The translations under genes and the position numbers were made by a program. The notes under the pieces are model-generated. The model was not told the DNA's origin, searched no databases, and worked only from the letters and a program-made list of their open reading frames with translations. Of a stretch of DNA of 45,520 nucleotides, positions 5,239-5,291 are shown piece by piece. Position 1 is the stretch's first letter. Every line of letters begins with the position of its first letter. This stretch comes from a virus (Duplodnaviria > Heunggongvirae > Uroviricota > Caudoviricetes): the IMG/VR virus record IMGVR_UViG_2579778748_000005, one strand, 5' to 3'.

Positions 5239-5291
5239 ATAACTGGATGTTCATCCAGTTATGATTATAATCATGATTGCATTTTGTGCAA
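5239..5291 (-). promoter_or_regulatory. Sigma70-like promoter (TTGCAC-16-TATAAT) with a 24-bp palindrome ATAACTGGATG-TT-CATCCAGTTAT at the predicted start site
   Basis: -35 at 5286..5291 and -10 at 5264..5269 (minus strand); palindrome with 11-bp perfect arms at 5239..5262. Confidence 0.5.

What the first reader, a model, noticed from the sequence alone, without database searches (positions are those of the whole stretch)
5239..5291. Near-consensus promoter for the satellite capsid operon with a 24-bp perfect palindrome at the start site
Seen: TTGCAC-16-TATAAT on the minus strand, immediately followed by ATAACTGGATG-TT-CATCCAGTTAT (11-bp perfect arms). Inference: a strong promoter held off by a dimeric repressor, or activated by a helper factor, gating capsid gene expression. 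It is not a canonical LexA box.
Basis: seen in the sequence. Interest (0 to 1): 0.4.

Follow-up and report, generated by a model that had tools for sequence, protein, structure and literature searches.

The report
Probable LexA operator on PICI capsid promoter
The palindrome at the promoter of this phage satellite's capsid genes has at its centre a good match to the binding site of LexA, the bacterial DNA-damage repressor. These genes are therefore probably switched on directly by the SOS response, a link not yet reported for E. coli satellites of this type.

Summary
The sequence is there, and the palindrome is larger than reported: TTGCAC-16-TATAAT is followed by a perfect 15+2+15 palindrome (5266-5235). 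It is the longest perfect close-spaced inverted repeat in the window.

The island is an EcCICFT073-type PICI. The characterised prototype in CFT073 carries the identical palindrome.

The central 20 bp, AACTGGATGAACATCCAGTT, is a LexA-type SOS box: CTG-N10-CAG with CTGG/CCAG half-sites, as in the ruvA and cho boxes. Its heterology index is 7.3. Eighteen known E. coli boxes score 1.8-12.2. About 0.003 such sites are expected by chance in the window.

- **Conservation:** in about 120 related promoters, CTG and CAG never change by substitution; one copy carries a 1-nt insertion. The outer arms vary.
- **Other genera:** Salmonella keeps only the 16-bp core. Pluralibacter has a box 12 bp further downstream.
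- **Fit to LexA:** column variability anticorrelates with LexA motif information (rho -0.72).
- **Exception:** a sister lineage lacks the box and has a weaker -10 (TAAAAT).

Best explanation (confidence 0.6): LexA represses the capsid, decoration and scaffold operon by sitting at about -3 to +17. This parallels SaPI operon I.

Its dismissal of LexA is not. No binding or expression data exist. Interest is moderate, as a new member of a known kind.

The parts
5286..5291 (-). -35-like hexamer TTGCAC (3 of 6 matches to TTGACA). The TTGC is invariant in 44 unique variants.
5264..5269 (-). -10 hexamer TATAAT (perfect consensus), 16 nt after the -35-like hexamer. It is TATAAT in nearly all box-bearing relatives and TAAAAT in the lineage without a box.
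5235..5266 (.). Perfect 32-bp palindrome (15-nt arms, 2-nt spacer): AATCATAACTGGATG AA CATCCAGTTATGATT.
   Evidence: identical in EcCICFT073
5241..5260 (.). LexA-type SOS box AACTGGATGAACATCCAGTT. The core CTG-N10-CAG spans 5258-5243. Predicted position is about -3 to +17 relative to the inferred start site.
   Evidence: Heterology index 7.3, P about 6e-8 per position. CTG and CAG invariant in 44 unique variants. Kept in Salmonella and Pluralibacter.
5307..5325 (-). Upstream block AATCATTTCATAATTTGCAA at about -45 to -65. Partly kept in Salmonella, Pluralibacter and class B. Possible UP element or activator site; function not tested.
   Evidence: Invariance is forced by the search pattern.
5229..5235 (-). 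T run after the palindrome. It is also retained in relatives that lack the hairpin, so it is probably a leader feature and not a terminator tail.
5369..5439 (-). Two intrinsic terminators (5439-5422 and 5407-5369) that close the alpA-primase-SSB-perC transcription unit upstream of the promoter.
5001..5207 (-). First gene of the operon: a 68-aa protein of unknown function (phrog_3255), with Shine-Dalgarno AGAGGA at about 5222-5217.
   Evidence: The AF2 model has no significant fold match.
3946..5001 (-). Major capsid protein homologue of the lambda gpE family (c1499 in EcCICFT073).
   Evidence: PF03864, 2e-52
3599..3934 (-). Head decoration protein homologue of the lambda gpD family (c1500 in EcCICFT073).
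   Evidence: PF02924, 2.5e-17
3173..3586 (-). 137-aa protein resembling the C-terminal (Nu3/scaffold) part of lambda-type head maturation protease. Last gene of the operon, followed by a terminator-like hairpin at about 3166-3145.
   Evidence: phrog_53, positions 495-567 of 583, 1.7e-10

Best explanation
The central 20 bp of the palindrome is an operator for the host LexA repressor. It sits immediately downstream of the -10 hexamer of a sigma-70 promoter. That promoter drives the PICI's small head-gene operon: a 68-aa protein, a gpE-like capsid protein, a gpD-like decoration protein and a Nu3-like scaffold protein.

In undamaged cells a LexA dimer bound at about -3 to +17 blocks open-complex formation or promoter escape. 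DNA damage also induces lambdoid helper prophages. When it activates RecA, LexA cleaves itself and the operon is expressed together with the helper's late genes.

**Shown here:**
- the sequence features and the match to the LexA motif;
- the statistical rarity of that match;
- the position of the box relative to the promoter hexamers;
- the conservation pattern across relatives.

**Inferred:**
- that the promoter is active and starts near 5257;
- that LexA binds;
- that transcription is SOS-inducible.

The outer 6 bp of each arm, which make the palindrome 32 bp long in this island, are probably not required.
For: **1. Match to the motif.** The sequence is CTG-N10-CAG with an A/T-rich centre. 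Its half-sites are those of the ruvA (CGCTGGATATCTATCCAGCA) and cho (CACTGGATAGATAACCAGCA) boxes. Its centre ATGAACAT is close to ATGAGCAT in recA (for the reference boxes).

**2. Score.** Heterology index is 7.34 with a matrix built from 18 E. coli boxes that themselves score 1.8-12.2 (ruvA 7.27, cho 7.03, lexA 7.01). With ruvA and cho left out it is 7.65, better than seven of the nine known boxes re-scored with that matrix (all but recA 5.18 and lexA 7.33).

**3. Rarity.** P(HI <= 7.34) is 6e-8 per position. That gives 0.003 expected per window and about 0.3 per 5 Mb. It is the best symmetric-matrix hit in the window.

**4. Specific placement.** In 80 related PICI loci (763 kb), every locus has this box. 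The only other boxes with HI <= 11 all lie 5-10 kb upstream of the capsid promoter; in the loci inspected that is the int-alpA region. Each of six further loci has exactly one box with HI < 13, always between the -10 and the start codon.

**5. Conservation follows LexA's requirements.**
- CTG and CAG are invariant in 44 unique variants, while the left outer arm holds the most variable columns.
- Column entropy against LexA motif information gives Spearman -0.72.
- Four of the five kinds of in-box change move towards the consensus, for example CCAG to ACAG.

**6. Other genera.** Salmonella keeps only the 16-bp core CTGGATAAATATCCAG, with non-palindromic flanks. Pluralibacter has a box, AACTGGATGTTTGTCCAGTT, 12 bp further downstream.

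**7. Link to promoter strength.** The box goes with a consensus TATAAT. The lineage without a box has TAAAAT.

**8. Precedent.** The SaPI packaging operon I is LexA-controlled (Ubeda et al. 2007, cited in PMC6092414).
Against: - **No experimental data.** I found no LexA binding, SOS induction or transcription start site for this operon.
- **Non-consensus half-sites.** Both are almost always CTGG and CCAG, whereas most E. coli boxes have at least one CTGT. Another dimeric protein that recognises ACTGGAT would leave the same conservation pattern.
- **Not universal.** A sister lineage with the same promoter and the same 68-aa gene has no box. LexA control is therefore not essential to the module.
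- **Weak -35.** It matches at only 3 of 6 positions, so the promoter may need an activator. In that case LexA would not be the only gate.
- **Published context.** Fillol-Salom et al. 2018 reported that alpA, the island's master activator, is not SOS-dependent. They found no phenotype for c1499 or c1500.
- **Relatedness.** Most of the compared sequences are closely related, so the invariance counts and the correlation p-value overstate the number of independent observations.
Confidence: 0.6

Rival explanations
1. The palindrome is the operator of a different dimeric DNA-binding protein. That protein could be encoded by the island (the YlcI/YnfO-type protein, AlpA, PerC or the 68-aa first gene product) or by the helper phage. 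The resemblance to a LexA box would then be coincidental.
For: - The half-sites are nearly always ACTGGAT and ATCCAGT, and do not drift freely towards CTGT.
- In this island and about half of the variants the symmetry extends beyond the 20 bp that LexA contacts.
- A few variants show paired changes in the outer arms: CAGGA with TCCTG, and AATTAT with ATAATT.
Against: - A chance match to the LexA motif at HI 7.3 is expected 0.003 times per window.
- The half-site occurs nowhere else in the window with fewer than 2 mismatches, so no second operator exists for an island regulator.
- Islands with no annotated perC keep the palindrome.
- The lineage without a box keeps the 68-aa gene, and that protein's model has no ribbon-helix-helix or other DNA-binding fold match.
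- The outer arms are not kept in Salmonella or Pluralibacter.
- The promoter region was not found in 50,697 phage records.
Confidence: 0.2
2. The palindrome works as a nucleic-acid hairpin. It would be either an intrinsic terminator or insulator (14-bp stem plus T run) that stops read-through from the upstream operon, or a 5'-terminal stem-loop that stabilises the capsid mRNA.
For: - The terminator scan lists it: 14 pairs, 4-nt loop, T-rich tail.
- The full hairpin folds at -17.7 kcal/mol, z = -6.
- In Pluralibacter an 8-bp hairpin is followed directly by a run of six U.
Against: - Two strong terminators already lie just upstream.
- A transcript from the predicted promoter starts inside the left arm and can form only a 5-bp stem, at -5.2 kcal/mol, no better than shuffled sequence.
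- The left outer arm is the most variable part of the region, while its partner bases are conserved, so the long stem is not maintained.
- The Salmonella hairpin is weak and is separated from the T run.
- The lineage without a box keeps the T run but has no hairpin.
- No Rfam family matches.
Confidence: 0.1
3. The palindrome has no regulatory function. It would be a by-product of local sequence history, with the operon controlled only through the upstream block or by read-through.
For: A related lineage does without it. c1499 and c1500 have no reported phenotype.
Against: - It is maintained in about 120 sampled copies, and a box is present in three genera.
- CTG and CAG are invariant, and the box has a different position in Pluralibacter.
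- The match to the LexA motif is rare by chance.
Confidence: 0.05

Closest known systems
LexA control of SaPI operon I, the packaging and capsid-morphogenesis operon of Staphylococcus aureus pathogenicity islands (Ubeda et al. 2007, as cited in PMC6092414)
   Same: A phage satellite places its morphogenesis module under direct control of the host SOS repressor. The module is therefore expressed when DNA damage induces the helper prophage. It is separate from the island's master regulator (Stl there, AlpA here).
   Different: - The host differs (Gram-negative), so the LexA motif differs (CTG-N10-CAG rather than the Firmicutes motif).
- The genes differ: gpE-, gpD- and Nu3-like head proteins with no known phenotype, rather than terS, cpm and pti.
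- The SaPI case was shown by experiment. This one is a sequence inference.
E. coli ruvAB and cho (ydjQ) SOS boxes
   Same: Both half-sites read CTGG and CCAG, in a 16-bp CTG-N10-CAG frame. The heterology index is similar: 7.3 and 7.0 against 7.3 here.
   Different: Those boxes control chromosomal DNA-repair genes. Here the box lies on a mobile island, in front of virion-type genes, inside a longer perfect palindrome.
LexA-gated functions of other mobile elements: colicin operons, the coliphage 186 tum promoter, integron integrases and prophage endolysins (PMC3108266 and PMC9621596; the rest from my own knowledge)
   Same: A mobile element borrows the host LexA repressor to time expression with DNA damage.
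   Different: None of these is a capsid-gene operon of a Gram-negative PICI.

Membership tests
E. coli-type LexA (SOS) box | 16-bp frame CTG-N10-CAG with dyad symmetry | tested here: met
   CTGGATGAACATCCAG at 5258-5243. The frame is kept in every class A variant except L284, which has a 1-nt insertion.
E. coli-type LexA (SOS) box | Overall similarity to known operators: heterology index within the range of boxes that LexA regulates | tested here: met
   HI 7.34 against 1.8-12.2 for 18 known boxes. HI 7.65 with ruvA and cho excluded. The matrix was rebuilt from Table 4 of PMC3009722. It is not the original Lewis et al. matrix, so absolute values are not comparable with published HI numbers.
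E. coli-type LexA (SOS) box | T at the fourth position of each half-site (CTGT and ACAG), the canonical form | tested here: not met
   Both half-sites read CTGG and CCAG. The ruvA and cho boxes have the same form, so this lowers the predicted affinity but does not exclude membership. Three variants have ACAG.
E. coli-type LexA (SOS) box | Placement overlapping or next to the core promoter or start site | tested here: met
   The box starts 3 nt after the -10 hexamer. The promoter itself is predicted only.
E. coli-type LexA (SOS) box | LexA binding, and RecA- and LexA-dependent induction by DNA damage | not testable with these tools
   No paper in the library holds the box sequence. None links LexA boxes to Gram-negative PICIs.
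Sigma-70 promoter | -35 and -10 hexamers with 16-18 nt spacing | tested here: inconclusive
   The -10 is perfect, the -35 matches at 3 of 6, and the spacer is 16 nt. The site is below the scan's threshold. TATAAT and TTGC are conserved across genera. No start-site data exist.
Intrinsic (Rho-independent) terminator | Stable G+C-rich stem-loop directly followed by a U tract, conserved in relatives | tested here: not met
   The stem has only 4 G-C pairs of 14. The long stem is not conserved. The T run persists where no hairpin exists.
EcCICFT073-type PICI (context of the element) | int, alpA, primase, then a module after the origin; integrated at a specific site; no lysis or tail genes | tested here: met
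   Same gene order and the same roxA-phoQ site as EcCICFT073. The promoter region is 99% identical to CFT073.

The most novel reading that the evidence does not exclude
EcCICFT073-type PICIs wire a miniature lambda-like head module (capsid, decoration and scaffold homologues) directly to the host SOS response through LexA. This would be independent of AlpA and of any helper signal.

DNA damage alone would then fill the cell with satellite head proteins at the moment lambdoid prophages induce. Their role could be to interfere with helper capsid assembly or to remodel it.

This would be convergent with LexA control of SaPI operon I in Gram-positive cocci. It would also give the first handle on genes (c1498-c1501) that so far have no phenotype.
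Probability: 0.3. Interest if true: 0.6.

Novelty: new member of a known kind. Interest (0 to 1): 0.45.

Why it matters
E. coli PICIs are described as controlled by AlpA, which responds to the helper phage and not to SOS (PMC6092414).

A LexA operator on the capsid-gene operon would add a second, helper-independent input. It would mirror the LexA control of the SaPI packaging operon, which suggests that satellites in distant bacteria converged on the same logic.

It would also tell experimenters when to look for a function of c1498-c1501: under SOS induction, in lexA(Def) cells. No phenotype has been found for c1499 or c1500 so far.

The element is present in about 11% of complete E. coli genomes, including O157:H7 and uropathogenic strains. 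The predicted regulation is cheap to test.

Tried and rejected
- **68-aa first gene product as a ribbon-helix-helix autorepressor.** The sequence looked suggestive. The AlphaFold model (pLDDT 74) has two helices and no significant PDB fold match (best E = 3.3). No Pfam or PDB sequence hit was found. The lineage without a box keeps the gene. Rejected as unsupported.
- **Terminator or attenuator.** See the rival explanations.
- **FNR site.** TGGAT-N4-ATCCA matches TTGAT-N4-ATCAA at 8 of 10 positions. The mismatch falls symmetrically on the T that distinguishes FNR sites (my own knowledge). The motif carries much less information than the LexA match. Not pursued.
- **Lambda CII-type TTGC-N6-TTGC at the -35.** The second repeat reads TGCA and the spacing to the -10 differs. 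Rejected on reading the sequence.
- **Shared promoter module with cf-PICIs.** I first took this from L003. L003 is a one-off chimera, found in 1 of 5,426 genomes. Ordinary cf-PICIs have an unrelated upstream region.
- **Searches that led nowhere.** The search for related loci with the capsid protein in genome contigs returned nothing usable. The 17-base DNA pattern scan of genome contigs gave almost only chance hits in unrelated taxa. The cf-PICI-type promoter pattern was not found in viral contigs. Rfam had no family at the site.
- **Literature.** No paper was found with the box sequence, or with LexA linked to EcCICFT073 beyond a reference-list citation.

Full report
**1. What is in the sequence**

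Read on the minus strand, the region downstream of the PerC-family gene contains the following, in order.
- Two intrinsic terminators, at 5439-5422 and 5407-5369.
- An A/T-rich block.
- TTGCAC (5291-5286), a 16-nt spacer, TATAAT (5269-5264), then one C.
- The palindrome.
- A T run and a Shine-Dalgarno sequence.
- The ATG of a 68-codon ORF at 5207.

The palindrome is longer than reported. Its arms are 15 nt and perfect (5266-5252 and 5249-5235) around a 2-nt spacer. It overlaps the last three bases of the -10. It is the longest perfect close-spaced inverted repeat in the 45.5-kb window.

The promoter is less "near-consensus" than stated. The -10 is perfect, but the -35 matches at only 3 of 6 positions, and the consensus scan did not list the site.

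**2. Context**

Window 1500-12200 is a phage-inducible chromosomal island inserted between phoQ and roxA.
- Upstream unit: integrase, AlpA-type regulator, primase, SSB, PerC-family protein.
- Operon in question: the 68-aa protein, a lambda gpE-family capsid protein (2e-52), a gpD-family decoration protein (2.5e-17), and a 137-aa protein resembling the Nu3/scaffold end of lambda-type head proteases.

The insertion site and gene order are those of EcCICFT073, the characterised E. coli PICI. Its promoter region is 99% identical, and its palindrome is the same 32 bp. In that island the capsid and decoration genes are c1499 and c1500. [quoted passage not shown] AlpA is described as the activator of the island, and alpA expression as independent of SOS. 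Rpp (c1503) redirects packaging.

The promoter region occurs in 595 of 5,426 complete E. coli genomes. It was found in no phage record and in two plasmids.

**3. The core of the palindrome is a LexA-type box**

The central 20-mer is AACTGGATGAACATCCAGTT. It has the CTG-N10-CAG frame of the E. coli SOS box. Both half-sites read CTGG and CCAG, as in ruvA (CGCTGGATATCTATCCAGCA) and cho (CACTGGATAGATAACCAGCA). The centre, ATGAACAT, is one base from that of recA (ATGAGCAT). The reference boxes come from Table 4 of PMC3009722.

I built a symmetrised count matrix from those 18 boxes and computed a Berg-von Hippel heterology index (HI).
- The PICI box scores 7.34. The known boxes score 1.8-12.2.
- With ruvA and cho left out of the matrix it scores 7.65. 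Of the nine known boxes re-scored with that matrix, only recA (5.18) and lexA (7.33) do better; it beats ruvA, cho, dinG, polB, dinB, ftsK and uvrD.
- The exact probability of HI <= 7.34 at the window's base composition is 6e-8 per position. That gives 0.003 expected in the window and about 0.3 in a 5-Mb genome.

With the symmetric matrix this is the best hit in the window. The next two hits are also in the island, in the int-alpA spacer.

**4. Comparative evidence**

I collected relatives in three ways.
- An exact pattern on the upstream block, in IMG/VR.
- Homologues of the 68-aa protein and the contigs that encode them.
- A pattern on the -35, spacer and -10 only, which is blind to the palindrome, in metagenomes and IMG/VR.

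The last set holds 139 instances in 40 variants, and these fall into two classes.
- **Class A** (about 120 instances; E. coli, Salmonella, Pluralibacter) has TATAAT and a box with HI 6.1-10.2.
- **Class B** (about 15 instances) has TAAAAT and no box (best HI >= 19.7). It keeps the 68-aa gene and the T run.

Within 44 unique E. coli-type sequences, CTG (5258-5256) and CAG (5245-5243) never vary. The most variable columns of the whole region are 5261-5259, the outer part of the left arm. Their partners in the right arm are nearly fixed. The 32-bp perfection seen in this window is therefore not maintained. About half the variants have two or three mismatches in the outer arms.

In other genera the picture is as follows.
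- Salmonella keeps only CTGGATAAATATCCAG, with non-complementary flanks (HI 8.8).
- Pluralibacter has a half-site at the original place and a full box, AACTGGATGTTTGTCCAGTT, 12 bp further downstream (HI 9.1).

Other points:
- Most kinds of change inside the box move towards the LexA consensus: G to A at position 9, A to T at position 10, C to T at position 12, and CCAG to ACAG.
- Column entropy of the PICI boxes anticorrelates with the information content of the LexA motif (Spearman -0.72 over 24 columns).
- The sequences are related, so that p-value is optimistic.
- In 80 PICI loci (763 kb), boxes with HI <= 11 occur only at this promoter (80 of 80) and 5-10 kb upstream of it; in the loci inspected that is the int-alpA region.

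**5. Mechanism proposed**

A LexA dimer bound from about -3 to +17 would block RNA polymerase at a promoter with a consensus -10. RecA-stimulated LexA self-cleavage during SOS would release it. The satellite's head-protein operon would then be expressed at the time lambdoid helper prophages induce.

The steps that are inferred and not shown are promoter activity, the start site, LexA binding and SOS inducibility. I put the confidence at 0.6.

**6. Rivals**

- **Another dimeric regulator (0.2).** This is possible because the half-sites are almost always CTGG and CCAG, and because some variants show paired outer-arm changes.
   - No second copy of the half-site exists in the window.
   - Islands lacking an annotated perC keep the palindrome.
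   - The 68-aa protein shows no DNA-binding fold.
   - That protein persists where the box is absent.
- **RNA hairpin or terminator (0.1).** The full hairpin is stable (-17.7 kcal/mol, z -6), and the scan calls it terminator-like.
   - A transcript from this promoter starts inside the left arm and forms only a 5-bp stem.
   - The long stem is not conserved.
   - Two terminators already precede the promoter.
   - Class B keeps the T run without any hairpin.
- **No function (0.05).**

**7. Comparison with what is known, and novelty**

As a sequence element it passes the tests I could run for an E. coli-type LexA box, except the canonical T at the fourth position of each half-site. The ruvA and cho boxes also lack that T.

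I found no paper in the searchable library that holds the box sequence or that links LexA to this operon or to Gram-negative PICIs. The library omits most subscription journals, so prior description cannot be excluded.

I rate it a new member of a known kind: a LexA operator on a mobile element, in a place where it had not been noted. Interest is moderate (0.45). The mechanism is familiar. It would still add a helper-independent SOS input to a well-studied satellite family, and it suggests the conditions under which the unexplained capsid-like genes should be assayed.

Noticed in passing
window 10785-10804 and 10896-10915 (int-alpA intergenic region); L227 6289; L044 1240-1259: Two more LexA-like boxes lie upstream of alpA.
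- TACTGGTTTTTTATACACTA has HI 8.2, but its right half reads CAC and not CAG.
- TACTGGATATGCGAACAGAT has HI 12.1.

EcCICFT073 has the CAC form (TACTGTTTTTTTATACACTG). Other PICI alleles have an intact CTG-N10-CAG, for example AACTGTACAAAAAACCAGTA, which starts inside the int stop codon. In 763 kb of PICI loci, the only boxes with HI <= 11 apart from the capsid-promoter box lie 5-10 kb upstream of that promoter; this was confirmed as the int-alpA region in L014, L022 and L044.

The published SOS-independence of alpA was measured on the degenerate CFT073 allele.
   Followed up: partly
window 2331-2408 and 3066-3143, enclosing 2463-2897: The Rpp-like gene lies on a 657-bp segment flanked by 78-nt inverted repeats (91% complementary). 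Each repeat carries a lambda-type cos sequence (ACGGGGCGGCGACCTCGCGGGTTTTCGCTATTTATGA).

The segment is inverted relative to EcCICFT073, while the flanks are colinear. This looks like an invertible cassette between two inward-facing cos sites.
   Followed up: partly
L223 250-300, L224 790-840, and L230, L236, L259, L262, L271, L279, L281: A sister lineage of the same operon (68-aa homologue 60-63% identical) keeps the -35, the spacer and the T-rich leader. It has TAAAAT in place of TATAAT and lacks the right half of the box (...CATGACTGACTTTTCGTTATG...). Loss or absence of the LexA-like box thus goes with a weaker -10. The host species was not identified.
   Followed up: partly
L003 3100-3330 (E. 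coli JNEC-KY176), compared with L286: This is a chimeric island. The PICI promoter, up to the left half-site (ACTGG), is fused to the leader and HK97-type capsid, protease and portal module of a capsid-forming PICI. The junction is seen in 1 of 5,426 genomes. Ordinary cf-PICIs (353 genomes) have an unrelated upstream region and no LexA-like box.
   Followed up: yes
window 3173-3586: The 137-aa last gene of the operon matches the C-terminal (Nu3/scaffold) part of lambda-type head maturation protease (phrog_53 positions 495-567 of 583, 1.7e-10). The operon therefore encodes capsid, decoration and scaffold homologues, but no portal or protease.
   Followed up: no
window 6525-6682: A cluster of inverted and direct repeats (GGGTAGATAGTGG, CTGTCTACC/GGTAGACAG) lies just downstream of the primase gene. 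It is probably the island's replication origin, in the position where PICI origins are described.
   Followed up: no
window 10850-10895 (minus strand): Tandem short repeats GCAACAATGAGCAACAATGTGGAACAAC lie between the two LexA-like boxes upstream of alpA. CFT073 has similar ACAAC-rich repeats. They may be binding sites for AlpA or the integrase.
   Followed up: no
window 5307-5325: The upstream block AATCATTTCATAATTTGCAA (about -45 to -65) is recognisable in Salmonella, Pluralibacter and class B promoters as ATTTCAT-N4-TG(C/A)AA. It occurs only once in the window, even allowing 3 mismatches. It may be an UP element or an activator site.
   Followed up: partly
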